Positions 33,257 through 49,887 of a stretch of DNA of 53,478 bases are shown in pieces. The translations under genes and the position numbers were made by a program. This DNA is from Minisyncoccota bacterium (GTDB lineage: Bacteria; Patescibacteriota; Minisyncoccia; Phycocordibacterales; UBA9973), in assembly GCA_041659785.1 (NCBI GenBank), contig JBAZXO010000002.1:1-53478 (forward strand), given 5' to 3'. The notes under the pieces were generated by a model that saw only the letters and a list, made by a program, of their open reading frames with translations, made no database searches and had not been told where the DNA came from. The first letter of the stretch is position 1. Every line of letters starts with the position of its first letter.

Positions 33257-33311
33257 AGTTTCATATTATACTATTTCTAAAATAGAAGACACTTTTAAGT
33301 CTTATTAACTC

Positions 33312-33331
33312 TGTTGATAAGCTGTGGATAA
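33312..33331. promoter_or_regulatory. DnaA-box pair upstream of dnaA
   Basis: TGTTGATAA (33312-20) and perfect TGTGGATAA (33323-31). Confidence 0.75.
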
Positions 33332-33668: not shown

Positions 33669-33675
33669 ATTAAGT

Positions 33676-34987: not shown

Positions 34988-35008
34988 AAAGTTATAAAGT
35001 TCATAAAG
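34975..35008 (+). repeat. 8/9-nt repeat element, solo 5' arm (yidC-jag)
   Basis: AGTTATAAAGTAAAAAGTTATAAAGTTCATAAAG spans the yidC stop. Confidence 0.8.
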
Positions 35009-35013
35009 AATTT

Positions 35014-35511: not shown

Positions 35512-35583
35512 ACCTCACCCCGTCTCGCAAGCGAGCCACCCCTCTCCATTTTAGAAAATGGAGAGGGGAAAAAGGGGTGAGGT
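35512..35583. repeat. Palindromic mini-element, CCCCTCTCC/GGAGAGGGG family
   Basis: CCCCTCTCCATTTT/AAAATGGAGAGGGG stem; 35516-35544 is the exact reverse complement of 50159-50187 inside rsmA. Confidence 0.85.
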
Positions 35584-35587
35584 GCAT

Positions 35588-36982
35588 TTATTTTAATCCT
35601 AACTCCCACAAGAAAGAATCTTTTTTGTTTACAAAAAATAGGTAATTTTCTCCATCATCCAATGCAAGTTTAATGCTGTCTGTGTCTTGTCCTCCTTGCA
35701 CAGTTACTGGGTCTGCAATTATTGTGGCATTTCCAGTTTTAATATCTATTTTCCAAATTTGATCTGAGAAAGAAACTTCTCCTTGATACCAAGTATCTGG
35801 ATAGCTCCCCGCGTTAATATTTTTAGGTACTCCGCAATAAGCAGTGTCACTTGTTTTATTCCAGACACATTTTTCTGGTAAAGTTTTCACTCCGAGTGGG
35901 TCTGTTGTTTTTGTGTCTGTGTGATAAACATTGAGAAATAAATTATTATCACTATATAGAACTAATTTTCCACTAGGACTTGTTAGTGTGGTGAGTCCAT
36001 TTATACCTCCTAATACTTTGGTTAAATTTTTATTAGTTGGATCCATCATATACATATATCCTTGTACGCTAGAGGCGGGCTTAGTGGTGAAGGTAATCAT
36101 TTTACTATTGGGCCACCAAGATAACCATTCTGTAAATGCTGAACTGAAAACTTGAACTTTCTTATTAGTTGCGAAGTTTAGAGTCGTCCCTATCATATTA
36201 TCTCCAGAGTTAAATAAATAGAATAAACTTCCAGCATCAGAAGACAGGCTTACATCTTTTATATCATCAGGTAAGAATGTTCCCTTTACTTCATTGCTGC
36301 TCGTTGTGTCTGCGCCCAATATTTCTTTAGGAAGATTACCAACAAAAGTAGCAATTGTTTTAGCATCCCCTTTTAAATATCTCATTATCACCGAGCCTCC
36401 ATTGTTGCCAAAGAAAACTTCGTATATTTTAGGAATTATTGTTATGGAAAATTTCTGTTCGAGGATTCTGTCTGCAAAAGTTTGATAGATGTTTCCCGTA
36501 GCTCTCTCTACGTATCTCAATGCAGGCATAAATTCAGTTGGTGGAGCAATTGGTTTTACTAAAGTCTTTTTTAGACCCCCCGCACCCCCCTTAGCAGGGG
36601 GGACAGGATTAGCTCCCTCTCCTGATAAGGGGAGGCTGGGAGGGGTTGTATTGTTTGGTGTTACTACAGGGACATCTTTTAATCTTTCTTTAGAAAATAC
36701 AGTAAATCCAGCTATAGGCATACTAGAAATTTTTCTTAATTTTACTAGTAAGTCTGGATTTGTGGGAGTTGGTTCATATCCAGAAACATCTACTGGAGGA
36801 GTAACTGCTGGAGTTACTGGTTTGTTGTTATTTCCAAATGGATTAAATTGGGAACCAAAATTTGTGCCACCCGTGTCAACGCCCAGTGTGCCTGTTGGTT
36901 GCTGTAAATATAAAAATCCAAATACCCCAACTACAACGATGGCTAGAATGATTATTAAAAGTATAAAGTTTCTTTTTGACAT
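35588..36982 (-). CDS. Membrane-anchored exported protein, possible beta-propeller
   Basis: N-terminal TM, Pro-rich linker, repeated S.D/W.P strand motifs; carries a palindromic insertion at 36576-36645. Confidence 0.6.
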   Translation of the reverse strand: MSKRNFILLIIILAIVVVGVFGFLYLQQPTGTLGVDTGGTNFGSQFNPFGNNNKPVTPAVTPPVDVSGYEPTPTNPDLLVKLRKISSMPIAGFTVFSKERLKDVPVVTPNNTTPPSLPLSGEGANPVPPAKGGAGGLKKTLVKPIAPPTEFMPALRYVERATGNIYQTFADRILEQKFSITIIPKIYEVFFGNNGGSVIMRYLKGDAKTIATFVGNLPKEILGADTTSSNEVKGTFLPDDIKDVSLSSDAGSLFYLFNSGDNMIGTTLNFATNKKVQVFSSAFTEWLSWWPNSKMITFTTKPASSVQGYMYMMDPTNKNLTKVLGGINGLTTLTSPSGKLVLYSDNNLFLNVYHTDTKTTDPLGVKTLPEKCVWNKTSDTAYCGVPKNINAGSYPDTWYQGEVSFSDQIWKIDIKTGNATIIADPVTVQGGQDTDSIKLALDDGENYLFFVNKKDSFLWELGLK

Positions 36983-37001
36983 ATTGTTTTAATTTTATTT
37001 A

Positions 37002-38243
37002 TTAGCATCCATCTTTAGCAATTTGTGCTTTTATTTGAGTCATTCTATTTATTACACTATCCCCATAAAATTCATTTGGCGGTTGTCTACCAGCTTGACA
37101 GGCAACACCAGAGTAATATTTACAGGCAGCGTTTCTGGGATCATTAATTGCACCGATATTTTTTAAATATACACCCGCTGTCATTAATGCGTCGTTAGTG
37201 TTCCACGGATTTTTTCCACTGCCACCATTGGCTAGCCATGTTGTAGGACGAAATTGCATAAGTCCTATAGCACCCCCATGACCACCGCCACTAGCACACG
37301 ATACATAAGTAGTACTCATATTATTACTACCCACAATGGCTTCTAAAGCTTTTTTATCTTCAGGAAACATGTTTGCATTAGCAGGAAGACATCCCCCAGT
37401 GTTTGCTCCTCCACCTGTTTCTTGGGCAAATATAGCTAAAATAAAAGCTTTATCTACTCCAGTGCTTGCTTGAGCAGCTGTTGCTGCAGGACAAGCTTCT
37501 GCTTTAAAGTTAACTTTACTAGGTTTTCCATCACGACTTAGTGCCCCAGAAATTTGGAAATCCTTTATAGTTACCTCAACCTTCACATCTGTTAAACTAT
37601 TTAAGTCAGTTTTTAAAATATCAGGATTTATCGTGTACAGAAGAGTGTAAGCACCAAGAGCCAAAAGAAGACCAAAAATTGCATTTCTTATTCTTTCTTT
37701 TCCATGTTCTTTGTTTGAGATTAGTTCACTCGTCATATATTCTATTCCACCTATGACAATCATTATCACAGCAAAGACTGCACAAACACCAATAAATATT
37801 CTTATAATCATATTTAAATAATCACCCAGTTTATTATTGTTGGCAGTGCTACTTGTAGGGTCATAAGTTCTTAAGGTATGGGTCTGGGGATCACATCCAG
37901 GGGTGCTAACATCACAAGGTAACGGAGCTAAAAAATTATAATAAGCTTGCCAAGATGCTCCAGTTACAGTTTTGCATTCTTTTTCTGTAACATTATTAAT
38001 TGTTGTTTCCCCAACGGGAAAAACACAGTTTCCTTTTGGTTCGGGTGTGTTTGGTGTTGTGGAGGTTGGAGTGGGCGTAGGGGTTGGATTTGTGGTTGGG
38101 GTGTTACATCCAATTGGTATAGGTATTGGTGTGCCACTACTGCTGTCTGTCCCCGTACAAGGGAATGCGTGTATAGATAATATTGGAATAAATATTCCAA
38201 TTAGTACAATAAGTATTAAAATGTATGGTGAAATTTTTTTCAT
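37002..38243 (-). CDS. VirB2/TrbC-like pilin fused to lytic-transglycosylase-like domain
   Basis: Signal peptide; two-TM pilin block IIRIFIGV...IGGIEYMTS...KERIRNAIFGLLLALGAYTLLYTINP; C-terminal AIFAQET...GAIGLMQF.P.TW...NPWN..DA lysozyme-fold motifs; start moved to 38243. Confidence 0.75.
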   Translation of the reverse strand: MKKISPYILILIVLIGIFIPILSIHAFPCTGTDSSSGTPIPIPIGCNTPTTNPTPTPTPTSTTPNTPEPKGNCVFPVGETTINNVTEKECKTVTGASWQAYYNFLAPLPCDVSTPGCDPQTHTLRTYDPTSSTANNNKLGDYLNMIIRIFIGVCAVFAVIMIVIGGIEYMTSELISNKEHGKERIRNAIFGLLLALGAYTLLYTINPDILKTDLNSLTDVKVEVTIKDFQISGALSRDGKPSKVNFKAEACPAATAAQASTGVDKAFILAIFAQETGGGANTGGCLPANANMFPEDKKALEAIVGSNNMSTTYVSCASGGGHGGAIGLMQFRPTTWLANGGSGKNPWNTNDALMTAGVYLKNIGAINDPRNAACKYYSGVACQAGRQPPNEFYGDSVINRMTQIKAQIAKDGC

Positions 38244-38244
38244 T

Positions 38245-39234
38245 TTAAAATTGTAAATTAATTTCTCCGCTAGCATTTCCAGTAAGTTTATATATATTTT
38301 CAATATCAAGTTTTACTTTAGATGTTCCAGAAACCCCAGCCTGAATTTTAAGAGGTATTAAATTTTTTATAATACCAATTGAGGTAGCTACTGAAGTGTC
38401 GTTAATAGACCATGTCCAATTAAGTAGAGGGGTTCTTATGTCGCCTGGAGAGATAAAGTACGGTACAGCCTCTAGCGTAGTATCGCCAAGGATTTTATAT
38501 CCATCAAAAAGTGCTTGTTCCCAAAGTGTACCCATGTATATATTATTTATATAGAATAAAATTTTAGGTTGAGTCATTCCTATATCAATGCTTGCGTTCG
38601 AAGAAATATTTTGGCTGATTGTTGACGCAGTTACGCTAATATTATTTGAATTTTCTAAATAATCATTGACATAAGTAAAAGAATTTTTACCATACCCAGA
38701 ACCATCTACATTATTGGTGTAATCTTTTTTCCAAGAATAAGTCATGGTTTTAGGATTTACCAAACCAGCACCCGATTTTATTTCAGGCATAGCCACTACT
38801 TTTACAGAACTGTCGGCTGAAGGCATTGCTTTACCTTTATAAAATGGTGGTACATAAGAATCTTGTGCTTGCCAAAGCAACACCATTACCGAAGGTTTTA
38901 TTGTCATGTTTGTATTTACTGTGCCGTCTGGTAGATTTATTGTAGCTACGACGCTTGTATTCCCCCCCGCATTGGGAGCATTTAGAGAAAAAGTTTTCTT
39001 ACCAATTCCAGAAGAAATATTTTTTCCATTAACAGACCAAGAAATTAGAACACTGTCTAGATTATTAGCATAACTATTTAAGGTAATATTTACATTTTCA
39101 TTAGGTGCCGGATTTTCTGGTGACATATTAACTAAAATACTACTAGATGAAGCAGCATTTGCTTTAAAAGGTAAATTTATTCCCAGTATTGCAACAAATA
39201 TAGTTAAATATAGTAATAAAAATTTAAACTTCAT
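38245..39234 (-). CDS. Exported protein with Ig/PKD-like domains
   Basis: Signal peptide; repeated ISWSVNG, YSWKKD, WTWSIND strand motifs. Confidence 0.6.
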   Translation of the reverse strand: MKFKFLLLYLTIFVAILGINLPFKANAASSSSILVNMSPENPAPNENVNITLNSYANNLDSVLISWSVNGKNISSGIGKKTFSLNAPNAGGNTSVVATINLPDGTVNTNMTIKPSVMVLLWQAQDSYVPPFYKGKAMPSADSSVKVVAMPEIKSGAGLVNPKTMTYSWKKDYTNNVDGSGYGKNSFTYVNDYLENSNNISVTASTISQNISSNASIDIGMTQPKILFYINNIYMGTLWEQALFDGYKILGDTTLEAVPYFISPGDIRTPLLNWTWSINDTSVATSIGIIKNLIPLKIQAGVSGTSKVKLDIENIYKLTGNASGEINLQF

Positions 39235-39254
39235 ACACTCTAATTATATCATAT

Positions 39255-39292
39255 CTACTTTATAAACTTGATAACTTTAAACTTTATAACTC
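39255..39292 (-). repeat. 8/9-nt repeat element, solo 5' arm (after virB4)
   Basis: - strand GAGTTATAAAGTTTAAAGTTATCAAGTTTATAAAGTAG. Confidence 0.8.
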
Positions 39293-39311
39293 CCAAATAA
39301 AACCTATGTTT

Positions 39312-41159
39312 TTATTTGGTGGCTGTTGCTGCCTCTGCTTGCTCTTCTTTGGCTTTTTTGTTGGATAATATTTGTGAAGGATCAGAAGTAATGATTTGGT
39401 CTTCAGTGTAAGAAGAAACAATTTTGATAGCGACGTGTTTTAATCCTGCAAAAAAGATTCCTTCTCCTAAACCAGACTCTAATAGTAAGTATTTTTCTTC
39501 ATCTGTAAGGTTGAAAGTTTTCTGTAGAAGGTCGATGGTGGTTGGAGACTGTTTCAAGAGAAGTTGGATTGAAGAGTTTGTAATTATGGGTACTCCATAT
39601 GGGGACTTCATGAAGTCCCCAGCGTCTTGAGTAATAGTAGAAAGCCCTAAATAATATTTTCGGCCTCTTTTAGCTATTGAATACAAGAAAGATGCCGTAT
39701 CTTCAGACTTCATCATCCACCATGCTTCGTCCACTACGAGTAAGCGTTTTTTTAAGTTTTTACGAATAGCATTCCATATGTAATGCATGATGATATACAT
39801 TGCTACTGGTTTAAGCTCGTCTTCCATGTCACGAACAGAGAAAACAACAAATTTTTTATTTATATCCACATTGGAAGGTCTATTTAAGAATGTTGCCCAA
39901 GAACCTCGTGTATATTTCGCGAGTCGTGCAACGACTGAGTCACTCCCCTCCATGCCTGAAAGCACCATTTCCATATCTGAGAGGAGTGGAGGTTCTATGT
40001 TAGAGAAATCTGACTCCGGAGTGATGTCTTTTATGGCATAAGTCTCTGAGATGGCTCGGTCCACCATGGAATCTTCTTCTGGAGTGAGTCCACCTAGCAT
40101 GAGTCTAAAGAGTCCGACTAGGTTAATGATGTTTGAACGAAGGACATCTTCGGCAGTTTCATCTTCGCGAGGTATCGGTAAATCGAAAGGATTTAAATGG
40201 TGGTCCGAAGAAAGTGAAATGTTAAAATATCTTCCACCGACAGCTTCAGCCAAGAATTCATATTCTCGCTCTGGGTCTATCACGATGACGTCTGTATCAA
40301 ACATGAGTGACCTTAGAATTTCTAATTTTGTAGCATAAGATTTTCCTGAACCAGACTTGGCGAAGGTTACAGAATTGTAATTTTCTAATGAAAATCTGTC
40401 GAAAATAACTAAACTAGAATTGTGTCTATTGATACCATAAAGTATTCCTTTATCAGAAGTGAGGTCAGAAGATATAAAAGGAAAGACACTCGAAAGCGGT
40501 TCCGAATTTAATTTTTGATGGATATTTAATAAGTCTGTCTCTATTGGGATGACGCTCTTGAAGCCTTCTTCTTGTTGGAAAAGGGCTGGTTTTATATAGA
40601 TGAGTTTAGATTCAAGCATTGATTTTATCTCATTTTCTATCTTGAAGAGCTCGAGATCGTTGTCTGCATATATTGTGATATAAATACCTACATCAAACAT
40701 TTTTTCTTGAGCTTGGATCAGATTATCACGGAGACCTTCTAAGTCTTGGTATGCTGTATCTAGCATTGGATCTCGGACCATACCTTTTGATTCTCGGACA
40801 TTTATCTGACTTTGAACTTCGGCGACTTTTTTCTGAAATTGCCTAAGCATTAATGATGTATCTATTGGATGAACAAAAATTGAAATATCAAAAATTTTAT
40901 CCAAGTTAATTATTGGAGAAAACCAATTATCTGTTAGAAATCTAGGATAAGATATTATGAAAAATGTTCGAGCTATTTTGTCACCAAGGTTTATAGATTT
41001 GGGGTCAATCTTGAGGGCTGAGGGGGCGATGACGTCTTGGAGTTCCAAGTTTGCAGATTCGTAAATTTTTTCTGGCAAAATAGCCAAAACAGAAGCGTTT
41101 GGCTCTTCGTTACTCTTTTTTACTCCAAATAATTTTTTTATATCATCTAAAATACTCAT
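39312..41159 (-). CDS. virB4: VirB4/TraC-like secretion ATPase
   Basis: Walker A AKSGSGKS, VIDPEREY, LNPFD, Walker B LLVVDEAW, KRGRKY..GL..ITQ. Confidence 0.88.
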   Translation of the reverse strand: MSILDDIKKLFGVKKSNEEPNASVLAILPEKIYESANLELQDVIAPSALKIDPKSINLGDKIARTFFIISYPRFLTDNWFSPIINLDKIFDISIFVHPIDTSLMLRQFQKKVAEVQSQINVRESKGMVRDPMLDTAYQDLEGLRDNLIQAQEKMFDVGIYITIYADNDLELFKIENEIKSMLESKLIYIKPALFQQEEGFKSVIPIETDLLNIHQKLNSEPLSSVFPFISSDLTSDKGILYGINRHNSSLVIFDRFSLENYNSVTFAKSGSGKSYATKLEILRSLMFDTDVIVIDPEREYEFLAEAVGGRYFNISLSSDHHLNPFDLPIPREDETAEDVLRSNIINLVGLFRLMLGGLTPEEDSMVDRAISETYAIKDITPESDFSNIEPPLLSDMEMVLSGMEGSDSVVARLAKYTRGSWATFLNRPSNVDINKKFVVFSVRDMEDELKPVAMYIIMHYIWNAIRKNLKKRLLVVDEAWWMMKSEDTASFLYSIAKRGRKYYLGLSTITQDAGDFMKSPYGVPIITNSSIQLLLKQSPTTIDLLQKTFNLTDEEKYLLLESGLGEGIFFAGLKHVAIKIVSSYTEDQIITSDPSQILSNKKAKEEQAEAATATK

Positions 41160-41167
41160 TTTTTTAT

Positions 41168-41209
41168 CTTTACTTTATAAACCTTACAACTTTACAAACT
41201 TTATAACTA
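41168..41209 (-). repeat. 8/9-nt repeat element, solo 5' arm (before virB4)
   Basis: - strand TAGTTATAAAGTTTGTAAAGTTGTAAGGTTTATAAAGTAAAG. Confidence 0.8.
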
Positions 41210-41848
41210 CTATTCCAGCTTTATTTTACCTTCTATTTCCCCTGGATTGAAAACTTTATAAAATACTTCCACCACTTCTTCAGTACCGAGCTGAGCTGAA
41301 TTTATACCACAACGACTAAGTCCTTGCTGTATTACGGCTACCCTCTCCTCTAATTGGGATCTCTTTTCTTCAAAAGCCACTTTCTTTGCTGCTTTAATTT
41401 CTGCTGAATTTTTTCTTGAGAATATTTTATCAATTATTCCAGAGTCTGATTTTAGAGCAGTGTGTGTATAAGGTACAACAATAAAAAAGCTTTTGGTCAT
41501 TATGGCGACAGTATCAGTGAAGTTTTTAATGAATTCTATATATTCTCTGGTTTGTAATTTTAGAAGAGGTTCATTTTGTACCTTGATTCTGTTCTCCAAG
41601 AGAAGTAGATATGGCCTGATGTCTAATCTTCTGGACTGGATTGATATCTGTATTGAAAAATCTAAGGTATTTAGAAAGTTTTGGAATTGCATTATTGTTG
41701 CTTTTTGTTCATCGGCAGATTTTAAAGAAAGATTTATAGAATTTGCCAATACAATTGCACGCAATTCGTCGTTTTTCAGCACGACTATTCCGTCGCGTAC
41801 TTCTTTGATTGGTATGAATTCTTGTGTTGCTTTTGCGTTTAATGCCAT
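41210..41848 (-). CDS. TraC/VirB4 N-terminal-like protein
   Basis: IKEVRDGIVV, NLSLKSADEQ, FLNTLDF.IQI.IQSR; sits between prgI-like and virB4. Confidence 0.65.
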   Translation of the reverse strand: MALNAKATQEFIPIKEVRDGIVVLKNDELRAIVLANSINLSLKSADEQKATIMQFQNFLNTLDFSIQISIQSRRLDIRPYLLLLENRIKVQNEPLLKLQTREYIEFIKNFTDTVAIMTKSFFIVVPYTHTALKSDSGIIDKIFSRKNSAEIKAAKKVAFEEKRSQLEERVAVIQQGLSRCGINSAQLGTEEVVEVFYKVFNPGEIEGKIKLE

Positions 41849-41850
41849 AC

Positions 41851-41969
41851 AGTTAGTTCATAAAGTTATAAAGTTCATAAAGTGTAAAGTTGTATTTTTT
41901 AAATTGTGAAATTGAATTTATTTGCATTGTATTTACTTGATAACATTATAACTTTTTACTTTATAACTC
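41851..41969 (-). repeat. 8/9-nt repeat element, both arms, no cargo (prgI-traC-like)
   Basis: AAGT-type arm 41933-41969 overlaps prgI stop; ACTT-type arm 41851-41892; 41852-41883 identical to 42411-42442. Confidence 0.85.
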
Positions 41970-42404
41970 GTTTACCTTTTGCTTGCTTAAATCTAACACA
42001 TCCAGACTCCAAGCCAGATCTCTTAATTTACTGCCATTTAATTCTAAGCCCCCTTCTTTCATCATTCTTATCTTGTTTATATCATTTGAGGTCCCCTGCT
42101 CACCATTTGTAGGCTTTTTTATCGTTGTATTTTTTTTCCAAATATAAAGTTTGTTTTGTATAAAATATTTGAAACCAGACTCAAGCATGTTTATAAAAGG
42201 TTTGTTGTTTGGTTTGTAAAAAGTAAGCATTAAAGAAAATCCTGCGATGGCCAAGATGGGTATGATTCCAAGGAGGAGCCCAAGCAATTTATAAACAGTA
42301 AAACACAAACCTGCTCCACCAGCTAAATAAACAAACTCCCTGAAGGTGAAAGGGCCAAAAATTTTGTCTTCTATTTCTAAAAACTGTGGAACTTTGAATT
42401 GCAT
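41961..42404 (-). CDS. PrgI family (VirB3-like) membrane protein
   Basis: MQFKVPQFLEIEDKIFGPFTFREF, two TM segments. Confidence 0.8.
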   Translation of the reverse strand: MQFKVPQFLEIEDKIFGPFTFREFVYLAGGAGLCFTVYKLLGLLLGIIPILAIAGFSLMLTFYKPNNKPFINMLESGFKYFIQNKLYIWKKNTTIKKPTNGEQGTSNDINKIRMMKEGGLELNGSKLRDLAWSLDVLDLSKQKVNEL

Positions 42405-42408
42405 GGAT

Positions 42409-42847
42409 AAGTTAGTTCATAAAGTTATAAAGTTCATAAAGTCCTTAAAGTTAAGATCCTTAATCCAAAGTTTTAATAAAACCTGATAATAACTTAGAAA
42501 TCTCTAGAGTTAAACCATACATTTTATCAAAATCTCTTTTGGGAAGGTACCTTAACTCTAAACCTAAGTTTAACATAGATCTGACTTCCCCAGCAGAGCC
42601 TTTTGATATAAAAAGAAAACTTTTTAATTCTTTGTTTGTTCTCCTCTCAAAACCTTCTGCAATATTATTCATTATTGAAACAGAGGCTCTTTCTATTTGA
42701 TTTTTGAAACTAAAATCTTTGCAAGTTTTAAATACCGTGTAAATATTAAGTGTTAATTCTTTTCCTTTTTGCCAAGATATTATTTCTTCGAATTTTTCTA
42801 TTTTCATGCTACTTTATAAACTTTACAACTTTTTACTTTATAACTAG
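42409..42847 (-). mobile_element. Putative cassette: four-helix-bundle gene bracketed by inverted 8/9-nt repeat arms
   Basis: 5' arm 42809-42847, gene 42460-42807, 3' arm 42409-42454; mobility inferred, not shown. Confidence 0.5.
42460..42807 (-). CDS. Four-helix-bundle protein (23S rRNA IVS protein / bAvd-like family)
   Basis: FEEIISWQKGKEL, QIERASVSIMNNIAEGFERRT.KE...FL.ISKGSAGE. Confidence 0.9.
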   Translation of the reverse strand: MKIEKFEEIISWQKGKELTLNIYTVFKTCKDFSFKNQIERASVSIMNNIAEGFERRTNKELKSFLFISKGSAGEVRSMLNLGLELRYLPKRDFDKMYGLTLEISKLLSGFIKTLD

Positions 42848-42859
42848 ATTAAGTCCTTC

Positions 42860-43483
42860 CTAATCCGGACTTAATCTGTATGGATCTCCTTTTGGAGGAT
42901 AAGTGGAAGGAGCGGGTTTAGGGGGCTGGGGAATAGTATCGTTCTGGTTACTCATTTTTGTAAGATTTTCTAAAGAGTGTTCTGTGGTTACTGTAGGTGT
43001 TTGGAAAGTACTGTTTAATTTTTGTGCTAATATTGGATGTACTTCTTCTCCCTTTTTTAATTCTAATTTTTCTGGAATGATTTCTATACCAGCTGTGTTT
43101 AATACATGTGTATTTTTCTTCTTTTCCTCCTCTGTGTCGTGTTCAGTTGTATCTTTCTTGGATGTATTGTCATACATTTGCATCATTTTCTCTTTGATTT
43201 CTTTTAGAATTTTTTCATTTACAGCATTTACTATTAAGCGTGTTTTCTCATCTCCCAATTTCATGCTGTTTTTGATAGATTCTTCAAACTTGTCTGGATG
43301 TGTAAAACCAAACATGACCATATGTGTCTCTAGAGAAAGTTGCCCCATTTGCTCCACGTTCAAACCCTGTGTCTGACCTATTTCAATAATATTGTCATCC
43401 ACATTTACTCCCATGATTGCCCATTTTAAATCTTCTGGGAGATCGTCAAACTTTTTTTGTATTTCTTCTAATGTTATTTCCAT
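42860..43483 (-). CDS. Hypothetical cytoplasmic protein
   Basis: 207 aa; helical N-terminus, low-complexity C-terminus ending DPYR; in the T4SS-like operon. Confidence 0.7.
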   Translation of the reverse strand: MEITLEEIQKKFDDLPEDLKWAIMGVNVDDNIIEIGQTQGLNVEQMGQLSLETHMVMFGFTHPDKFEESIKNSMKLGDEKTRLIVNAVNEKILKEIKEKMMQMYDNTSKKDTTEHDTEEEKKKNTHVLNTAGIEIIPEKLELKKGEEVHPILAQKLNSTFQTPTVTTEHSLENLTKMSNQNDTIPQPPKPAPSTYPPKGDPYRLSPD

Positions 43484-43516
43484 AAATTTATTATTAAGCT
43501 AATAATTTTTTAATGA

Positions 43517-46500
43517 TTAAGTATGTCCATGTGCCGCTGGTGGTGTATGTGCTGATTCTGTTGGTTTTTCATGAGGTTTTTCTTCTTCATGCTCTTCTTC
43601 TGTTTTATGTGCTGTATTTTCTTTTGGTGCTTCATGACTCTTCTTGTCTTCTTTGTGTTTTGTTCCTCCCCCCTCTTGTTCTTTCTCAAGTGCCGATTTG
43701 TCTTTTCCTAAATCAAGATTTTCCTTTTTAAGATTATGAAGATCTTTTTCTGCAGTTTTTAGTTTAGTTAATTCAAATTTTCTTTCGCCATTTTTTATTG
43801 TTTCATTAAATAAACCTACAACCCTTGGATCATCTTTCCCTGCTTTTTCTTGTTCAACAAGTCTTTTTAGTTCTATTTCGTTCATCTTTTCAGCAAATGA
43901 TATTTTTGTTAACTCCGATTCTATTTTTCCTGTATTTACAGTAAATCCCTTGTCTTTATCTCCAGTTACTAATCCATTTCCTGTGTCTTTTCCTGACGCA
44001 TCTTTTTCAATAAATTTATCTAATGATTCATGGAGTTTGTCTATTGATTTTATGTTTTCCGCTATCCTATCTGTTATTCCAGACATTTTCTTAAAGCCCT
44101 TTTCAAGTTCCTTGGTGAACTTAGATTCACCAGCTGCTTCTTTCATAGCATAATCTCCAGCACTTATACCACCTACACCCATACCACCCGTTACTCCCGT
44201 TGCTGTTCCCAAGGTTCCCATACCCATTGCTCCAGCAGCTACACCACCTACTGCTCCGCCAGTAAGAACAGCGGCTGTTCCACCGACGGCCATCTTTGTC
44301 ATCATAACTCTCTTGTGGTTTACATCGTTTGCTATTTTTGAATCATATACCATCTCTGCAAGTTTAGCTGGATCATTTTTATATGCTTCATTGTATCTTT
44401 TCCTATATGCTCCATCTTTACTAAAGTTATTTTTATCAATGATTTCACCAGTAAGATTTACGGTTGAATATGCTAGTGCCCCCAACAAACTATGGGCACC
44501 CACAAGAATATCATCACGAAATTCTTCCATTCTGGAACGGTTTAATTCGTCAGCTTTTGTGTAATATTCACCTTTGCTGTTTCTTACATTATGTTTCTTA
44601 GACCACTCCTCGACTTCCTTATCCGATTTGCCCGTTTTGTAAAGTTTCGATTCTTCTTTTAGAGCTTCAGATTTTCTTTCTCCAGCTCCTTTGAATCCAC
44701 CTTCTGTATTAGGCCTCAACCCTAATACACTTCTAGAGAAATCTAATCCAGATGCCTTAGACAAGGCTTTTCCTGCGCCCGATTTTCCAAAATCAAAAGA
44801 AGCTTTTTGTCCATAGTCTGCAGCCTTGAGAGTCGTTCTTGCCAAGAACCCACCAATACCTTTTGATTCAACTCCTGCCTTCTTTAGATTTTCACTGCTT
44901 GCTACAGTAGATGCTATTTTACCAATTGTTCCTGTTGCGAGCATTGCTGTTCCGCCCGTCACTGCTCCTAATGCAAGAGATGCACCAGTTTTTGCAGCAC
45001 CAAGTATTACCTCTCCAACTTTACCAGAGCTCTTTACTGCGTACATCATTGCTTTGTAAAGAAGGATATTAACTAAAATTAATGGTAAAAAGACCCCTAA
45101 ATACATTTTTATTGCTCCCGCTGGATCATCTGTACCACTAGCTTTTGGTATGAGTTCAGAAAATATATTTGAATGAAGTAATAAAAATATAAAATACAAA
45201 AAGAACATAAAAATTGGAGCCATAAATGCTGTTTTCAGCAAACGTTTTAACCAAGAATCCCAACCTATATATTCTAATCCTCCTAAAATTGGGACAGAGG
45301 AAGACATAAAAGCAAAAGGAGAAAAAATAATTAAAAACCAAAGCTCAACTAATCTAACTAAGAAAGCAAAACCTGCTACCCAAAGTACAAACACAGTATA
45401 GTACATTAATGATCCAGCCAAAATAGAAATTGCAATCAACATTCCAGCAGGTACAGTAGGCTCTTGTTTGACAAGATGACCGTCTATATATGTTTTTCTA
45501 AGTTCACTAAAGAAAGGTTCAGTTAGCGTTGTGGTAGGATTAAAACCACCAACTAAACCACCCGCTATATCTGTTTCGTTTCCTGTAAGTGCTACATATT
45601 TTCTTTGGTTTCCTTGTGCGTCTTTTGTATAAACACTTAATTTGTTATAAAAAGTTAAAGCTAAAATATTCGAAGCATCGATGATTACTTGAGTAAAGAA
45701 CATAGAAAAGTTTATGAGGAGTGCCACGACGATAACCTTCGCTATCATCTTTTTAACATCAGAACCACCAAGTCCAATAATTAATTTGATTGCAATATAA
45801 AGTAAGACAAGGATAAAGAAAAGATTTGAAAGGTCTCGAACGACTCCCCATGCTTGAGAAATAAAAGAATTTGTGAACAATCCACTACCCAATGAAATAA
45901 ACACTAAGATGTTAAAAAAATAAGCTGCAGTATAAAGGAAAAAAGCTGGTACGGTATAGAACATACCATAAGAAATTTGTATAGCACACCCAGGCCAGAT
46001 ACTAGAACCAGTACCTCCAGCAAAAAATACTCCGAATCCACACTGTTGTTTATTAATTTCTACTTCGAATGGCGTTGTCCCTCCTGGGGAAGCTGGAGCT
46101 ACTTGTCCCGTTGGTGTTGTCCCTGATGTTCCCGCTGGTATTTGTGTTACCGCCCCACCAACACCACCTGCAGTCCATGTTCCACCTCCATTACTTCCTG
46201 CCAATGTTTGACACTCAACAAAGGAATTAACTACCTGTGTTGGTGTTCCTTGTAAATTATAATTACAAGTTCCATTTCCTGTTGGTCCTGCTGGTGGTGG
46301 GGTGGTTGCTGGTATTTGTGTTACTGTTCCATCACGTGCAGTCCACGTTCCACCACCATTACTTCCTGCCGATTTTTGACAATCAGTTAAGTAAGCAGCT
46401 TGTTGAGTTTGCCCATATTTACATATTCCAGATAGATTTTGTTGTGCATTAATTTTACTTATCGGACTAAAAAGCCCGATAAGTGCAATGAATATTATTA

Positions 46501-46525
46501 TGTAAGGCAGAATTTTTCTAATCAT
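43517..46525 (-). CDS. VirB6/TrbL-like polytopic membrane protein
   Basis: Signal peptide; WGVVRDLSN, LLINFSMFF, RLVELWFLIIFSPFAF TM blocks; Gly-rich cytoplasmic tail; duplicated Cys module at N-terminus. Confidence 0.75.
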   Translation of the reverse strand: MIRKILPYIIIFIALIGLFSPISKINAQQNLSGICKYGQTQQAAYLTDCQKSAGSNGGGTWTARDGTVTQIPATTPPPAGPTGNGTCNYNLQGTPTQVVNSFVECQTLAGSNGGGTWTAGGVGGAVTQIPAGTSGTTPTGQVAPASPGGTTPFEVEINKQQCGFGVFFAGGTGSSIWPGCAIQISYGMFYTVPAFFLYTAAYFFNILVFISLGSGLFTNSFISQAWGVVRDLSNLFFILVLLYIAIKLIIGLGGSDVKKMIAKVIVVALLINFSMFFTQVIIDASNILALTFYNKLSVYTKDAQGNQRKYVALTGNETDIAGGLVGGFNPTTTLTEPFFSELRKTYIDGHLVKQEPTVPAGMLIAISILAGSLMYYTVFVLWVAGFAFLVRLVELWFLIIFSPFAFMSSSVPILGGLEYIGWDSWLKRLLKTAFMAPIFMFFLYFIFLLLHSNIFSELIPKASGTDDPAGAIKMYLGVFLPLILVNILLYKAMMYAVKSSGKVGEVILGAAKTGASLALGAVTGGTAMLATGTIGKIASTVASSENLKKAGVESKGIGGFLARTTLKAADYGQKASFDFGKSGAGKALSKASGLDFSRSVLGLRPNTEGGFKGAGERKSEALKEESKLYKTGKSDKEVEEWSKKHNVRNSKGEYYTKADELNRSRMEEFRDDILVGAHSLLGALAYSTVNLTGEIIDKNNFSKDGAYRKRYNEAYKNDPAKLAEMVYDSKIANDVNHKRVMMTKMAVGGTAAVLTGGAVGGVAAGAMGMGTLGTATGVTGGMGVGGISAGDYAMKEAAGESKFTKELEKGFKKMSGITDRIAENIKSIDKLHESLDKFIEKDASGKDTGNGLVTGDKDKGFTVNTGKIESELTKISFAEKMNEIELKRLVEQEKAGKDDPRVVGLFNETIKNGERKFELTKLKTAEKDLHNLKKENLDLGKDKSALEKEQEGGGTKHKEDKKSHEAPKENTAHKTEEEHEEEKPHEKPTESAHTPPAAHGHT

Positions 46526-46561
46526 TTTTGTTTTGAAACTTTGCTACTCTTCTTTCTGTTT

Positions 46562-48916
46562 TTAATATGAAGGCTCTCCAGTATAAGAGTAATCAGTTGG
46601 GCTAGCCTTAAAAATAATATTACAGTTTATGTCTATATTTATTAGACTGCTAATGTCTCCATACACATGTTGCGCATTTACCATAGGTAAATCGGTATAT
46701 CCTGGATTGCCTAAGTCATTTGTTGGGTTTCTAAATGTAAAGCCAGAAGCGTTCGCAGCATTTGCTTCAGCTTCCCATCCTAGTGGATTATAAGGCATTA
46801 TGCTTGTGTCTCCATGAGAATAACCGCTTACTATTGGTAAGTCGCAGAATTTATCTATTTCTTTTGTTCCACTTTGCGTGCTTTTTCCTTTCCCTGTTGT
46901 ATCGACTTCCCCCCAGCCTGCAGCAATTCTTTGGTTTGAGCATTTAATATTTAAGTCTTCCATGTTAAGTTTCTGATCCTTTAGGGTATTTAATTCATTT
47001 CGTGTGTTTTCTATACTAACCGTAGAAGAAATTGAAGGAATTATGGCATCATATTGTTTTGCTAATTCTATTAATTCTTTTTCTTCAGGAGAGCCCGAAA
47101 CTGGTTGAGTTGAAAAAGTTGAAGTCGCTAAGGTGTCAGCAATTGCACGCAATCTATCTAATGCTTGGGATTTTATTTGTTTTGCATCAATTAATTCCTT
47201 TAATTGTTGACGAAAACTATCTATTTCTTTTATGGCGTTTATATAAGTCGTTGCCCCAGGAAGTGAGTTTTTCATTTTTGTATTTATCCAACTTGTAAAC
47301 GAATCAACAGCAAACCTAAGTTCCTTTAGTGCAGCATTTGAGGCTCGTACTTTTAAGTTATCACTACTGCTGACGGCATCAGTAAATTTACCAGCAAAGA
47401 GACGTTGCTCTTCTTGCAGTCTATTTTCCCAAGCTTTATCTGGTCCTGGCAAGCATTGATCAAGAGTTTTAGCTTCTTGCGTCACTGGTTCCATTAATTG
47501 AACAATGCCAGGAACATAAAAGTTTGGACTGTTTGGATCTACATTATTTGGATTGGATGGGTTATTTGCATTACATAATGGATCAGTTGAATTACATGGA
47601 GGATTATCCATCAATCTAATTTCTAGGGTTGTGTTGTTTATTGCATCTTGTATGGTCTTTTTGAAATCACTAAGTACAATTACCGAATTCCAATTGAAGG
47701 TTGTGTTAGTTCCTGTGGCTGGGCTACTAAGAGTTTGTCCACCATAGCTCCAAGTGTCTGGGGTATTTGATTGGTTTGTTGTACTTGATAAGCTATTTAA
47801 ACCACTGCTTATAAATTTATTTAATAAAGCATCAAAGATTGCAGAAAGGCTGTTTCCCATAGCTGCGGCAAGTTCGGTTTGTCTTTGTCCCGAGGTCAAC
47901 GAAGTCATTATTTGATTAGAAACCACAGAACCAGGAGTAGTATTTACTAATCCTCCTGGGCAGGTATTTTTACCCTCCCATTCACCCTTAGCTAATCTAA
48001 GTTTTGCTTTAAAAACTACATCCCATTGTTCTGCGTCTATTCGCTCATTTTCTGTTGGGTTTAAAATATCTACGGGTGTTGGCATTAATGGTCTATAATT
48101 GCTAATAAATGCAGCTTCATCAAAGCTTGGTTTTTGAAATTCGTTTGTGCCGTTATTGTAGTCTGGATTAGATGGACAAGTTTGTGGAGACAAAAAGCCA
48201 TTTCCTTGTTGAAGAGTCGATGTAATTTTTTGTGCGTTATTTTGACTTGTGCCCTGCAGTCTTGCCGCGAGTTCATTGGTTGCAAGAATTTGAAACCCCA
48301 CATAATTATTTTGAGGATATTGAGTATTAACAAGAAAACCACTCCAACCACTATAATTAAAATTTTGGTAATTATTTAATGCTATAGGGTCTCTTAGAGC
48401 ATTACTCAAACTAAAAGCAGCATTGTCTGCAAGTGTTCTTTTGTAAGAGTTAATTATATTCAAAGAAAAATCTTTCCCGAAAGGATATTTTAAATTATCA
48501 TAACCAAACACACCTACTAGCGACCTTACTTCTGATTTTGCAATATCGTTAAAGAAAGAACTTGAATTCTCTACGAAAAGTGGTGATCCGTGAAAACCAG
48601 AATTTATCCAGTTCACTGTGCTTTGGGTTATTTTTTTAAGAAAAGATCTAGCTACAGCCATAAGAGCTTGTTTAATAAGCACTTCTGACCATTGTTTTAT
48701 TGAAAGAGAGGTATTCGTGACTGTTGATACTGAAGTTATCCAAGTAAAAGCCTTCGTTAGCCAAATTGCTGGGGCGCTAGGTATCTCAACAACCGGGACT
48801 ATTACTGCTTGTGCTTTTTGAGGATTAGAAAACAAAATAGATGGTGCTATTATTGAAATAATTAAAAGAGCAGAAATAAATTTTTTTATTTTATTTTTAA
48901 ATTTTATATTTTGCAT
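46562..48916 (-). CDS. Large exported protein of the T4SS-like cluster
   Basis: 784 aa; signal peptide; ITQSTVNWINSGF..SPLFV motif; coiled-coil C-terminal half with paired Cys. Confidence 0.65.
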   Translation of the reverse strand: MQNIKFKNKIKKFISALLIISIIAPSILFSNPQKAQAVIVPVVEIPSAPAIWLTKAFTWITSVSTVTNTSLSIKQWSEVLIKQALMAVARSFLKKITQSTVNWINSGFHGSPLFVENSSSFFNDIAKSEVRSLVGVFGYDNLKYPFGKDFSLNIINSYKRTLADNAAFSLSNALRDPIALNNYQNFNYSGWSGFLVNTQYPQNNYVGFQILATNELAARLQGTSQNNAQKITSTLQQGNGFLSPQTCPSNPDYNNGTNEFQKPSFDEAAFISNYRPLMPTPVDILNPTENERIDAEQWDVVFKAKLRLAKGEWEGKNTCPGGLVNTTPGSVVSNQIMTSLTSGQRQTELAAAMGNSLSAIFDALLNKFISSGLNSLSSTTNQSNTPDTWSYGGQTLSSPATGTNTTFNWNSVIVLSDFKKTIQDAINNTTLEIRLMDNPPCNSTDPLCNANNPSNPNNVDPNSPNFYVPGIVQLMEPVTQEAKTLDQCLPGPDKAWENRLQEEQRLFAGKFTDAVSSSDNLKVRASNAALKELRFAVDSFTSWINTKMKNSLPGATTYINAIKEIDSFRQQLKELIDAKQIKSQALDRLRAIADTLATSTFSTQPVSGSPEEKELIELAKQYDAIIPSISSTVSIENTRNELNTLKDQKLNMEDLNIKCSNQRIAAGWGEVDTTGKGKSTQSGTKEIDKFCDLPIVSGYSHGDTSIMPYNPLGWEAEANAANASGFTFRNPTNDLGNPGYTDLPMVNAQHVYGDISSLINIDINCNIIFKASPTDYSYTGEPSY

Positions 48917-48954
48917 TTTCTTATTTTAACTCTTTATATTATACGTCTTTTTGT

Positions 48955-49887
48955 TTAATTGTTCAATTTATTATTGATGATGTCTGTAAGTTTTTTTACA
49001 GCAGATTCTAAAAGAGTGGCATTGTTTTGATATTGGCTTATTCCGCTGAGTGCTACGATCACATCACTATCATAAAGCCTTATATCACTTGTATTTTCTG
49101 ATAATCTTTCTAATGCGTTCAGAATATCTAAATGTGTGGATGCAAGAAATTGTGGTACGTTCATTTTTGCCATTTCATTTATTGTTCCTTGTGTTTGTTT
49201 AATAATTGGGTCAAGCTCTACGAGCACACTTGAGTCAACGTTGTTTTCATCAATTACAAATTTTTGCAATACATCTAAAACAGTTCCTTTGTTTGGATAT
49301 TTTTGTTGAATATTATTAAGCGTGTCGTTGTAACTTTTTACAGCCTTAATGCTGTTGTCATTTATTACTTTTATATCAGAAAGTAAAAATATTTTTCTTA
49401 TGGGAGTATTTTGTATTTTTGAAGCAAGAGAATTACTTAATTGGTCTGCTGTATTTTGGTCCATTATTCCATTTTGGTTTAGTGCTGCTGTCGAAGAGAA
49501 AAGTTCTCTAGAGAATTTATCTGTTTGAGTTAGATTTTCTTCATTTTGAATATTTTCGGCATTTGCTTGGTTTGCATCATTTTCTTTAGCTTTTAGTTTG
49601 TTTATTGCTACACTGTCAGGTGTTCCAGGAGTCGTTTCTTTCTTGGTTGGGTCAAGGCCGTATAAACCTTCTTCCCAATCTGGCACTCCGTCGCCATCTT
49701 CATCTTTATATACTAATTCTTTTAATGTGGTGGTGTAAGCTAGCCCACTTTCTTGATTTTTAAAAACAGAATTGATGGAATTTTTAACCACTGAAGTGTT
49801 TTTTATTAAAAAAAGTGCAACAAGAAACAGCACCGCAAAAGTGATTGAAAGTATCCTTTTATGTTTTAACCAAATTTCTTTAATTAT
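48955..49887 (-). CDS. Membrane-anchored protein with DxDGDG Ca-binding motif; start ATA (49887) or GTG (49833)
   Basis: DEDGDGVPDWEEGLYGLDP; frame is open from ATA 49887, 6 nt after TG-T-TATAAT; no ATG before the TM segment. Confidence 0.65.
   Translation of the reverse strand: MIKEIWLKHKRILSITFAVLFLVALFLIKNTSVVKNSINSVFKNQESGLAYTTTLKELVYKDEDGDGVPDWEEGLYGLDPTKKETTPGTPDSVAINKLKAKENDANQANAENIQNEENLTQTDKFSRELFSSTAALNQNGIMDQNTADQLSNSLASKIQNTPIRKIFLLSDIKVINDNSIKAVKSYNDTLNNIQQKYPNKGTVLDVLQKFVIDENNVDSSVLVELDPIIKQTQGTINEMAKMNVPQFLASTHLDILNALERLSENTSDIRLYDSDVIVALSGISQYQNNATLLESAVKKLTDIINNKLNN

What the first reader, a model, noticed from the sequence alone, without database searches (positions are those of the whole stretch)
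35588..49887. Origin-proximal, non-mobile type IV secretion-like operon
Seen: eleven co-directional genes including PrgI (VirB3-like), a split TraC-like plus VirB4 ATPase, a VirB6-like protein, a VirB2-like pilin and several exported proteins. They lie directly between jag and rsmA, with host-like composition and no relaxase, coupling protein, integrase or att repeats in the window. Established: Patescibacteria carry reduced T4SS gene sets, reported as important for the epibiotic lifestyle in Saccharibacteria. Inference: a domesticated host-contact or effector/nutrient channel rather than a conjugation system. The uncharacterised exported proteins may replace VirB5/7/8/9/10.
Basis: partly seen in the sequence, partly recalled or inferred. 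Interest (0 to 1): 0.68.

Follow-up and report, generated by a model that had tools for sequence, protein, structure and literature searches.

The report
Known chromosomal Patescibacteria type IV secretion locus
This is the host-owned, non-mobile type IV secretion machine already described beside the replication origin of ultra-small Patescibacteria; the one feature I did not find described is a pilin-like protein whose cell-wall-cutting end differs between sister species.

Summary
The eleven minus-strand ORFs between jag and rsmA (35588-49833) are real. They form a monoderm-type (MPF-FATA-like) type IV secretion locus with these parts:
- a VirB6-like polytopic protein;
- PrgI/VirB3;
- a TrsD-like piece plus VirB4;
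- a pilin-hairpin fused to a lytic transglycosylase;
- lineage-specific exported proteins.

The genome (0.69 Mb, from groundwater) has no relaxase from five Pfam families. It has one tyrosine recombinase, 15 kb away. Three soluble VirD4-like ATPases and a six-module pilin array lie elsewhere.

VirB4 occurs in 59 of 61 relatives. Gene order from dnaA through the cluster is the same in all 20 loci examined. VirB4 is more conserved than DnaA.

So the locus is vertically inherited and under strong selection, not a mobile element.

What this work adds: the "pilin" at this conserved position has a conserved hairpin and a swappable peptidoglycan-enzyme end. The ends seen are SLT, VanY, M15, NlpC/P60, YkuD and others, and they differ even within the genus. 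I found no description of this in the papers searched.

The parts
48955..49833 (-). g11, 292 aa: conserved acidic DxDxDG-type (calcium-binding-like) motif near the N-terminus; remainder unknown
   Evidence: Alignment A5 has invariant D44, D46, D48, D52, W53, E55. Profile hit to a biofilm surface protein Ca-binding segment, E 6.8e-5. Syntenic in 12 of the 20 loci; in several same-genus loci this end was not reached.
46562..48916 (-). g10, 784 aa: exported (one N-terminal hydrophobic segment); conserved N-terminal ~400 aa, variable C-terminus; no known family
   Evidence: No Pfam or PDB-profile match. 434 homologues, all unnamed Paceibacteria/Nomurabacteria proteins, 50-60% identical over residues 60-400. 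Some carry PF13629 or PF26182 in the tail.
43517..46525 (-). g9, 1002 aa: extended VirB6-like polytopic protein. Signal/anchor, duplicated Cys/Gly-rich outer segment, about 7 membrane helices (194-489), ~500-aa charged helical C-terminal tail
   Evidence: Hydropathy scan. 3 of 21 syntenic orthologues hit TrbL/VirB6 PF04610, best E 2.2e-5. The tail resembles TolA-like helices only weakly. Internal 80-nt duplication at 46162-46241 / 46330-46409.
42860..43483 (-). g8, 207 aa: no hydrophobic segment, so probably cytoplasmic; poorly conserved; function unknown
   Evidence: Found in 14 of 20 relatives at 24-44% identity.
42460..42807 (-). g7, 115 aa: 23S_rRNA_IVP (Avd-like four-helix bundle); accessory insert, not a T4SS part
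   Evidence: PF05635, E 4e-30. Single copy in the genome. No reverse transcriptase in the genome, so not a DGR here. Present at this site in only 2 of 20 relatives.
41961..42404 (-). g6, 147 aa: PrgI / VirB3-like two-helix membrane protein
   Evidence: PF12666, E 1.7e-8, above cut-off. Two hydrophobic segments. Present in 20 of 20 relatives.
41210..41848 (-). g5, 212 aa: TrsD-like, equivalent to the N-terminal domain of VirB4 encoded as a separate gene
   Evidence: Matches positions 1-164 of conju_CD1110, positions 102-258 of VirB4_plasma, and TrsD NF041427. 205-235 aa in 20 of 20 relatives.
39312..41159 (-). g4, 615 aa: VirB4 ATPase of the monoderm MPF-FATA kind, with Walker A (GSGKS) and Walker B (LLVVDEAW) motifs intact
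   Evidence: NF045971, 362 bits (cut-off 325). PF19044 TraG P-loop, E 2e-25. Motifs read from the sequence. Single copy in the genome. Present in 59 of 61 relatives.
38245..39234 (-). g3, 329 aa: secreted protein of three tandem Ig-like/FnIII-like beta-sandwich domains
   Evidence: AlphaFold2 model, mean pLDDT 86.5. Foldseek top matches Hoc, SiiE and FnIII tandems, E about 1e-7.
37002..38243 (-). g2, 413 aa from the ATG at 38243: signal peptide, Thr/Pro/Cys-rich segment, VirB2-like pilin hairpin, then C-terminal SLT_2 lytic transglycosylase. This is the cluster's VirB1-like function built onto a pilin module.
   Evidence: PF18895, 28.2 bits (cut-off 26.6); PF13406, E 3.5e-6. The database copy is 413 aa with both domains. 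The hairpin is conserved in 20 of 20 relatives, while the SLT part matches in none of them.
35588..36982 (-). g1, 464 aa: N-terminal membrane helix, disordered Pro-rich linker, about 7-bladed beta-propeller. It occupies the position that the VirB8-like PrgL holds in pCF10 gene order.
   Evidence: AlphaFold2 model, mean pLDDT 80.7. Foldseek matches WD40-type propellers, E about 1e-10. Profile hit to the TolB propeller, E 3.9e-5. The pCF10 gene order is from my own knowledge.
33232..33331 (.). DnaA-box cluster upstream of dnaA; with the pair at 31725-31741 it marks the likely oriC, 2.3 kb from the cluster
   Evidence: One perfect and two one-mismatch TTATCCACA boxes here, and two more between dnaN and dnaA. 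The cumulative GC-skew minimum is broad, 33-60 kb.

Best explanation
The block is this genome's copy of the chromosomal, vertically inherited Patescibacteria type IV secretion system, which derives from the conjugation machinery of monoderm bacteria (MPF-FATA).

Shown here:
- The membrane core is encoded in pCF10-like order: VirB6-like g9, VirB3-like PrgI, the TrsD+VirB4 motor, and a wall-cutting enzyme (g2).
- These are followed and preceded by lineage-specific surface proteins: an Ig-like protein (g3), a propeller (g1), g10 and g11.
- The small pilins are encoded separately, as a six-module array on another contig.
- The locus is fixed next to oriC across the order. Its ATPase evolves more slowly than DnaA.
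- No relaxase is found in the genome.

Inferred:
- The TrsD/VirB4 motor, docked on PrgI and the VirB6-like channel, assembles a short VirB2-type pilus or conduit through the cell's own wall.
- The g2 protein sits in the membrane by its pilin hairpin, with the enzyme outside, and opens peptidoglycan for that conduit.
- The variable exported proteins make contact with the partner cell.
- The machine moves proteins or other cargo between the epibiont and its host, not its own DNA by conjugation. The cargo and its direction are unknown.
For: - Domain calls.
- VirB6 assignment through orthologues.
- VirB4 present in 59 of 61 relatives at 72-92% identity.
- Same gene order in all 20 loci from the genus and 11 other families.
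- VirB4 is 88% / 75% identical (same genus / other families), against 82% / 57% for DnaA. The exported proteins are only 26-43% identical.
- No hits for PF03432, PF02486, PF01076, PF03389 or PF08751 in a genome scored 100% complete.
- One tyrosine recombinase, 15 kb away.
- Pilin array at C1:19528-22047.
- Three VirD4-like ATPases, unlinked and without membrane segments.
- Literature: the same system, neighbours and conclusion are in PMC12102498. It is essential for epibiotic growth in Southlakia epibionticum by Tn-seq, at locus tags 0006-0019 (PMC10633639).
Against: - There is no functional or expression data for this organism; no RNA runs hold the sequence.
- The VirB6 assignment is indirect.
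- No VirB8-like component was found.
- The relaxase search covered five Pfam families only. MOBC, MOBM, MOBH and MOBB were not searched, and PMC12102498 finds MOBC and MOBM to be the commonest relaxases in this phylum.
- Three T4CP-like, DNA-translocase-type ATPases are kept in the genome, which leaves room for a DNA substrate.
- Host contact is inferred from Saccharimonadia, a different class.
Confidence: 0.8

Rival explanations
1. The machine is a DNA or nucleotide import device, analogous to ComB of Helicobacter pylori or Ced of Sulfolobales. It would feed an organism that cannot make nucleotides.
For: - No relaxase.
- Three VirD4/TrwB-like DNA-translocase-type ATPases are retained.
- Weak partial match of VirB4 to CedB (NF041017, E 2.7e-7).
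- The idea is raised in PMC11665869.
Against: - The CedB match is a short P-loop stretch far below the cut-off (29.6 bits against 700).
- The T4CP-like genes are unlinked and lack membrane anchors.
- In S. epibionticum the T4CP homologue was not essential although the T4SS was (PMC12102498).
Confidence: 0.12
2. It is still a working conjugation system. It would use an unrecognised relaxase and the unlinked coupling proteins to transfer chromosomal DNA.
For: VirB4 is of a conjugative family. Coupling-protein homologues exist. The relaxase search was limited to five families.
Against: - Fixed position and gene order across an order.
- No integrase or ancestral repeats at the borders.
- PMC12102498 found relaxases in only 103 of 3,035 genomes, and those were rarely near virB4.
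Confidence: 0.05
3. It is a decaying remnant of an integrated conjugative element with no present function.
For: None beyond the absence of relaxase and coupling genes in the window.
Against: - All eleven ORFs are intact.
- VirB4 has intact Walker motifs and is more conserved than DnaA.
- Present in 59 of 61 genomes of 0.4-0.9 Mb, which have little room for junk.
Confidence: 0.02

Closest known systems
Patescibacteria-clade chromosomal T4SS (Quiñonero-Coronel et al. 2025, PMC12102498; Southlakia epibionticum SEML1_0006-0019, Wang et al. 2023, PMC10633639)
   Same: MPF-FATA-type VirB4 with a separate TrsD; PrgI/VirB3; VirB6-like protein; VirB2-like pilin modules; VirB1-like enzyme near virB4 (reported for Paceibacteria); no relaxase; T4CP homologues elsewhere; neighbours dnaA, dnaN, rpmH, rnpA and ksgA.
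   Different: Nothing at the level of the system. Details not stated in that paper's text: the VirB1-like enzyme here is fused to a pilin hairpin, and its enzyme domain differs between sister species. The small pilin array sits on another contig rather than in the cluster, unlike S. epibionticum.
Gram-positive conjugative T4SS of pCF10 (prgF-prgL) and relatives (pIP501, ICEBs1, Tn916/CTn-type elements)
   Same: Order VirB6 - VirB3 - VirB4 - wall hydrolase - bitopic membrane protein. Membrane-anchored peptidoglycan hydrolase (PrgK/TraG/CwlT type). VirB2-like proteins are now also reported there (bioRxiv 10.64898/2025.12.18.695078).
   Different: No relaxase, linked coupling protein, adhesin (PrgB) or VirB8-fold protein. 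The locus is chromosomal and fixed. The hydrolase has one enzyme domain and a pilin-type hairpin anchor.
Peptidoglycan-targeting antibacterial effectors of T6SS/T7SS and polymorphic toxins (amidase, muramidase and L,D-transpeptidase-fold effectors; from my own knowledge)
   Same: A constant delivery or anchoring module joined to interchangeable wall-acting enzyme domains (NlpC/P60, lysozyme/SLT, YkuD, M15/VanY).
   Different: No immunity gene was identified. Secretion or delivery of g2 has not been shown. The enzyme may act only on the producer's own wall.

Membership tests
Patescibacteria-clade T4SS (MPF-FATA-derived) | VirB4 of the monoderm MPF-FATA kind | tested here: met
   NCBIfam conju_CD1110, 362 bits against a cut-off of 325, for the C-terminal piece alone. 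No tree was built to place it inside the Patescibacteria clade.
Patescibacteria-clade T4SS (MPF-FATA-derived) | Separate TrsD-like gene next to virB4 | tested here: met
   The 212-aa ORF matches the VirB4 N-terminus and TrsD. Adjacent to virB4 in 20 of 20 relatives.
Patescibacteria-clade T4SS (MPF-FATA-derived) | VirB3 (PrgI) and VirB6 membrane components near virB4 | tested here: met
   PrgI is above the Pfam cut-off. VirB6 is supported only through 3 of 21 syntenic orthologues and membrane topology.
Patescibacteria-clade T4SS (MPF-FATA-derived) | VirB2-like pilin genes | tested here: met
   PF18895 in g2, plus six modules at C1:19528-22047.
Patescibacteria-clade T4SS (MPF-FATA-derived) | Chromosomal, no relaxase, near dnaA | tested here: met
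   no relaxase; synteny; DnaA boxes 2.3 kb away.
Conjugative element (ICE or plasmid T4SS) | Relaxase (MOB) gene | tested here: not met
   Five Pfam relaxase families give no hit in the whole genome. MOBC, MOBM, MOBH and MOBB were not searched.
Conjugative element (ICE or plasmid T4SS) | Membrane-anchored coupling protein encoded with the system | tested here: not met
   Three VirD4/TrwB-like genes lie on other contigs or regions and have no hydrophobic segment.
Conjugative element (ICE or plasmid T4SS) | Integrase, attachment repeats, patchy distribution | tested here: not met
   The only tyrosine recombinase is 15 kb away. The 29-nt inverted repeat pair is absent from relatives. The locus is present and syntenic in all sampled relatives.
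VirB2/TrbC-type pilin (for g2) | Signal peptide plus two-helix hairpin matching a pilin profile | tested here: met
   PF18895, 28.2 bits (cut-off 26.6). TrbC is below its cut-off (17.4 against 27.9). Hydrophobic segments at 30-48, 161-179 and 209-227 of the 435-aa ORF as listed from its TTG start, which is 22 residues longer than the 413-aa protein.
VirB2/TrbC-type pilin (for g2) | Small protein (about 100 aa) that polymerises into a pilus | tested here: not met
   The protein is 413 aa with an about 190-aa enzyme domain after the hairpin. Polymerisation cannot be tested with these tools.
VirB1-like T4SS wall hydrolase (Gram-positive type) | Membrane-anchored peptidoglycan-cleaving enzyme encoded beside virB4 | tested here: met
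   SLT_2 domain, E 3.5e-6 (26.9 bits, cut-off 24.3), two genes downstream of virB4. Catalytic activity not tested.
Diversity-generating retroelement (for g7) | Reverse transcriptase with template/variable repeats | tested here: not met
   No RVT_1 match in the genome.

The most novel reading that the evidence does not exclude
The gene at the g2 position is a polymorphic, pilin-borne cell-wall weapon or drill aimed at the host, not just a housekeeping VirB1.

What the data show:
- A constant VirB2-type hairpin carries interchangeable peptidoglycan enzymes on the outer face. If it co-assembles with the pilins of the unlinked array, the enzyme would sit on or at the base of the T4SS conduit.
- The heads seen are SLT_2, SLT-like, VanY, M15_4, NlpC/P60, YkuD, a large unassigned H..D..HxH class and others.
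- There are at least 15 BLAST-unrelated tail classes among 120 proteins.
- At least seven kinds occur among ten species of one genus, although the flanking genes are syntenic.

Interpretation: the head would be matched to the wall chemistry of each species' host, so it could predict the host range of uncultured Paceibacteria. I found no paper describing the fusion or its polymorphism.
Probability: 0.3. Interest if true: 0.65.

Novelty: already known. Interest (0 to 1): 0.33.

Why it matters
The Patescibacteria T4SS is one of the few machines shown to be essential for the epibiotic way of life, and its cargo is unknown. This locus adds another clean, complete example from a 0.69-Mb groundwater Paceibacteria genome. 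It shows how strongly the motor is conserved (more than DnaA) while every surface-exposed part diverges fast. If the swappable wall-enzyme head on a pilin module really targets host peptidoglycan, it would give a sequence-readable handle on host specificity and on how these cells breach their hosts.

Tried and rejected
- DGR hypothesis for the Avd-like gene g7: rejected. The genome has no reverse transcriptase and only one PF05635 copy.
- The 29-nt perfect inverted repeat bracketing the cluster as a mobile boundary: rejected. It is absent at up to 5 mismatches from all 20 syntenic relatives. One copy lies inside rsmA, consistent with the GC-rich in-frame palindromic elements noted elsewhere in this genome.
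- PDB profile searches gave nothing usable for g10, or for the two largest unassigned g2 tail classes. For g9 they returned only weak matches of the C-terminal tail to TolA-like and other long helical proteins.
- The sigma-70 promoter and terminator scan of the cluster was no better than shuffles, so I make no operon-boundary claim beyond the tight spacing.
- No RNA runs hold the sequence. DNA runs only show that the source is a groundwater metagenome.
- No VirB8-like candidate was found. g1 and g3 were modelled and neither has that fold.
- The first tail clustering merged classes through a shared linker. It was redone after trimming 40 residues.
Full report
**What is there**

The window is the first 53,478 bases of contig C2 of a 686,725-bp, seven-contig genome scored 100% complete. 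The genome was assembled from groundwater. Earlier notes of this scan place it in Paceibacteria.

Around 32-35 kb lie dnaN and dnaA on the minus strand, then rpmH, rnpA, yidC and jag on the plus strand. DnaA boxes cluster on both sides of dnaA, at 31725-31741 and 33232-33331, one of them perfect. The cumulative GC-skew minimum is broad, 33-60 kb. The origin is therefore most likely at dnaA, 2.3 kb from the cluster. The skew alone would not prove this.

Eleven minus-strand ORFs follow, from 49833 down to 35588. Spacers are 1-112 nt. They are bounded by rsmA (49974-50846) and converge on jag.

**Gene by gene**

Listed in transcription order, with call numbers as evidence.

| Gene | Size | What it is |
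|---|---|---|
| g11 | 292 aa | Invariant DxDxDG-type acidic motif |
| g10 | 784 aa | Exported; N-terminal ~400 aa 50-60% identical in hundreds of unnamed Paceibacteria proteins; no known family |
| g9 | 1002 aa | Anchor, duplicated Cys/Gly-rich outer segment, about seven membrane helices, ~500-aa charged tail |
| g8 | 207 aa | No hydrophobic segment; unknown |
| g7 | 115 aa | 23S_rRNA_IVP four-helix bundle |
| g6 | 147 aa | PrgI/VirB3 |
| g5 | 212 aa | TrsD-like, equivalent to the VirB4 N-terminal domain |
| g4 | 615 aa | VirB4 |
| g3 | 329 aa | Three Ig-like domains (pLDDT 86.5) |
| g2 | 413 aa | Pilin hairpin fused to a lytic transglycosylase |
| g1 | 464 aa | Membrane helix, disordered linker, about seven-bladed beta-propeller (pLDDT 80.7) |

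- g9 gives no Pfam hit itself. Three of 21 syntenic orthologues hit TrbL/VirB6 (best E 2.2e-5). Its layout fits the 'extended VirB6' architecture described in PMC12857230.
- g4 scores 362 bits on conju_CD1110 (cut-off 325) and has intact Walker A and B motifs.
- g2 starts at the ATG at 38243. The TTG start listed by the ORF finder is an over-extension; the database copy is 413 aa. Its layout is signal peptide, Thr/Pro/Cys-rich stretch, T4SS_pilin hairpin (above cut-off), then an SLT_2 lytic transglycosylase.
- g1 also gives a TolB-propeller profile hit, E 3.9e-5.
- The order VirB6 - VirB3 - VirB4 - hydrolase - bitopic protein mirrors prgH-I-J-K-L of pCF10 (my own knowledge). However, g1 does not have a VirB8 fold.

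**Is it mobile?**

No.
- Five relaxase Pfam families give no hit anywhere in the genome.
- The only tyrosine recombinase is at C2:64793-65356.
- There are no tRNA genes at the borders.
- GC content matches the genome.
- VirB4 is found in 59 of 61 relatives.

I fetched 20 kb around virB4 in 20 genomes: 9 of the same genus and 11 of other families of the order. Every one has dnaA | (rnpA-)yidC(-jag) | g1-g2-g3-VirB4-TrsD-PrgI-(g8)-g9. g10, g11 and rsmA follow, usually with pcrA beyond, wherever the 20-kb stretch reached that far. In several same-genus loci the far end fell outside the stretch because g9 and g10 are longer there.

One item deserves mention. A perfect 29-nt inverted repeat, found only twice in the genome, brackets the cluster at 35516-35544 and 50159-50187; the second copy is inside rsmA. 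It is absent from all 20 relatives. It looks like the GC-rich palindromic elements that sit in frame inside genes of this genome. I read it as two recent copies of such an element, not as ends of a mobile unit.

**Selection**

Mean identity to this genome, same genus / other families:

| Protein | Same genus | Other families |
|---|---|---|
| VirB4 | 88% | 75% |
| TrsD | 78% | 55% |
| PrgI | 65% | 43% |
| DnaA | 82% | 57% |
| YidC | 69% | 44% |
| RsmA | 63% | 46% |
| g3, g8, g9, g10, g11 (exported or surface) | 30-43% | 26-30%, often over part of the length only |

A motor more conserved than DnaA, with fast-diverging outer parts, fits a machine that is needed and that faces a changing partner.

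**Parts encoded elsewhere**

- PF18895 finds six further pilin modules in five tandem ORFs at C1:19528-22047. This is the kind of array PMC12102498 reports in 383 assemblies.
- Three VirD4/TrwB-like ATPases lie at C1:57725-59866, C1:59870-61333 and on C4 near 33.7-36.4 kb. None has a hydrophobic segment. The paper finds about two such genes per genome, mostly far from virB4, and notes that the homologue is not essential in S. epibionticum.

**What is known**

Quiñonero-Coronel et al. 2025 (PMC12102498) surveyed 3,035 Patescibacteria genomes and report:
- a monophyletic VirB4 clade nested in MPF-FATA;
- TrsD as the commonest partner;
- PrgI, VirB6 and VirB2-like pilins;
- VirB1 homologues associated with virB4 specifically in Paceibacteria;
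- relaxases in only 103 genomes;
- dnaA, dnaN, rnpA, ksgA and rpmH as the frequent neighbours in Paceibacteria.

They conclude that the system was co-opted for a function other than conjugation and may gain expression from being close to the origin. Wang et al. 2023 (PMC10633639) showed by Tn-seq that the homologous cluster, at locus tags 0006-0019, is essential for epibiotic growth. PMC11665869 calls its role 'completely unknown' and mentions effector delivery or nucleotide uptake.

**What may be new**

In all 20 relatives, only the hairpin region of g2 (about residues 124-280) is conserved. The SLT part matches none of them. The orthologues share three features: a signal peptide, a '(L)LAPLPG' motif and the hairpin (GGIEYMTSEL...LNTINPDLL). 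Their C-terminal ends differ:

| Genome or locus | C-terminal head |
|---|---|
| this genome | SLT_2 |
| L011 | SLT |
| L017 | VanY |
| L019 | NlpC/P60 |
| L020 | YkuD |
| L021, a second tandem copy | weak CHAP |
| several loci | unassigned classes |
| L013, L014, L016 | no head at all (140-161 aa) |

Even the closest relatives differ in head type: L005 and L006, whose VirB4 is 90-91% identical.

A database search seeded on the hairpin gave 513 proteins. By my count, among the best 120:
- 7 carry SLT_2;
- 16 carry VanY;
- 6 carry YkuD;
- 17 carry NlpC/P60;
- 5 carry Peptidase_M15_4.

After trimming the shared linker, the tails fall into at least 15 BLAST-unrelated classes.
- The largest class (38 proteins) has invariant His/Asp residues in an H..D..HxH pattern (A6). 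This reminds me of LAS-type zinc peptidases.
- The next unassigned class (16 proteins) has E-S...GLFQIN (A7), which looks like a lysozyme/SLT motif.
- Both readings rest on motifs only; PDB profile searches found nothing.

By the positive-inside rule and VirB2 topology (inference), the head lies outside the membrane. A second SLT_2-type enzyme with a coiled coil, at C1:148699-149301, is 33% identical to the g2 head. The head may therefore have been recruited from an ordinary wall enzyme.

There are two readings.
- Neutral replacement: any wall-cutting activity will do for a VirB1 job, so domains are swapped neutrally.
- Host targeting: the head acts on the host wall and tracks host wall chemistry. 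The set of domains matches the peptidoglycan-targeting effector repertoire of other contact-dependent systems (my own knowledge).

I cannot separate these here. I put the host-targeting reading at about 0.3.

The text of PMC12102498 does not mention a VirB2-hydrolase fusion. Searches for PF18895 and for pilin plus peptidoglycan hydrolase found no description. The preprint on Gram-positive VirB2-like pilins does not mention fusions either. That is an AI note, not independent evidence.

**Verdict**

- Observation: confirmed, with corrections.
- Interpretation: right on domestication and non-mobility, untested on function, and not supported on 'replacing VirB5/7/8/9/10'.
- The system is already known, so interest is modest.
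- The polymorphic pilin-borne wall enzyme is the only lead worth following.

Noticed in passing
window 37002-38243 and L005-L024 orthologues: The pilin-hairpin protein at this syntenic position carries a different peptidoglycan-enzyme domain in different species, even within the genus. Heads seen: SLT_2, SLT, VanY, M15_4, NlpC/P60, YkuD and unassigned classes. Three of 20 orthologues have no head.
   Followed up: yes
G000:C1:19528-22047 (outside the window): A tandem array of five ORFs holding six T4SS_pilin modules (one ORF has two). It is unlinked to the virB4 cluster.
   Followed up: partly
G000:C1:57725-61333 and C4 ~33.7-36.4 kb (outside the window): Three VirD4/TrwB-like P-loop ATPases without any membrane segment. 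Two are adjacent, and one of those has a treble-clef zinc finger and a long Pro/Lys-rich tail.
   Followed up: partly
window 42460-42807: A single-copy 23S_rRNA_IVP (Avd-like) gene is inserted between g8 and PrgI. The same intergenic site holds a 35-40% identical gene in 2 of 20 relatives. The genome has no reverse transcriptase.
   Followed up: partly
window 35516-35544 and 50159-50187: A perfect 29-nt inverted repeat, present only twice in the genome, brackets the T4SS cluster. The right copy is read in frame inside rsmA as part of what looks like an extra GC-rich stretch. It is absent from 20 relatives.
   Followed up: partly
window 33635-33669, 34972-35009, 39258-39292, 41173-41208, 41851-41883, 42410-42442, 42812-42846; also C1:20345-20360: Two to four tandem copies of an AGTTATAAAGT / ACTTTATAAC unit lie, in either orientation, 5-25 nt upstream of the start codons of rnpA, jag, g3, VirB4, TrsD, PrgI, g7 and one pilin-array gene. 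There are 15 such clusters in the genome, 6 of them in these two loci. This may be a shared promoter or operator.
   Followed up: partly
window 46162-46241 and 46330-46409: An internal 80-nt duplication (78% identical) in the outer N-terminal part of the VirB6-like protein gives two copies of a 'SAGSNGGGTWTA' segment.
   Followed up: no
window 39312-41159 versus 31916-33256: VirB4 is more conserved than DnaA among relatives: 88% against 82% within the genus, and 75% against 57% across families of the order.
   Followed up: yes
L010, L012-L016, L021, L023, L024 (between virB4 and g3): Other families of the order have an extra ORF of 108-255 aa between virB4 and the Ig-like gene. It is absent from this genus.
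   Followed up: no
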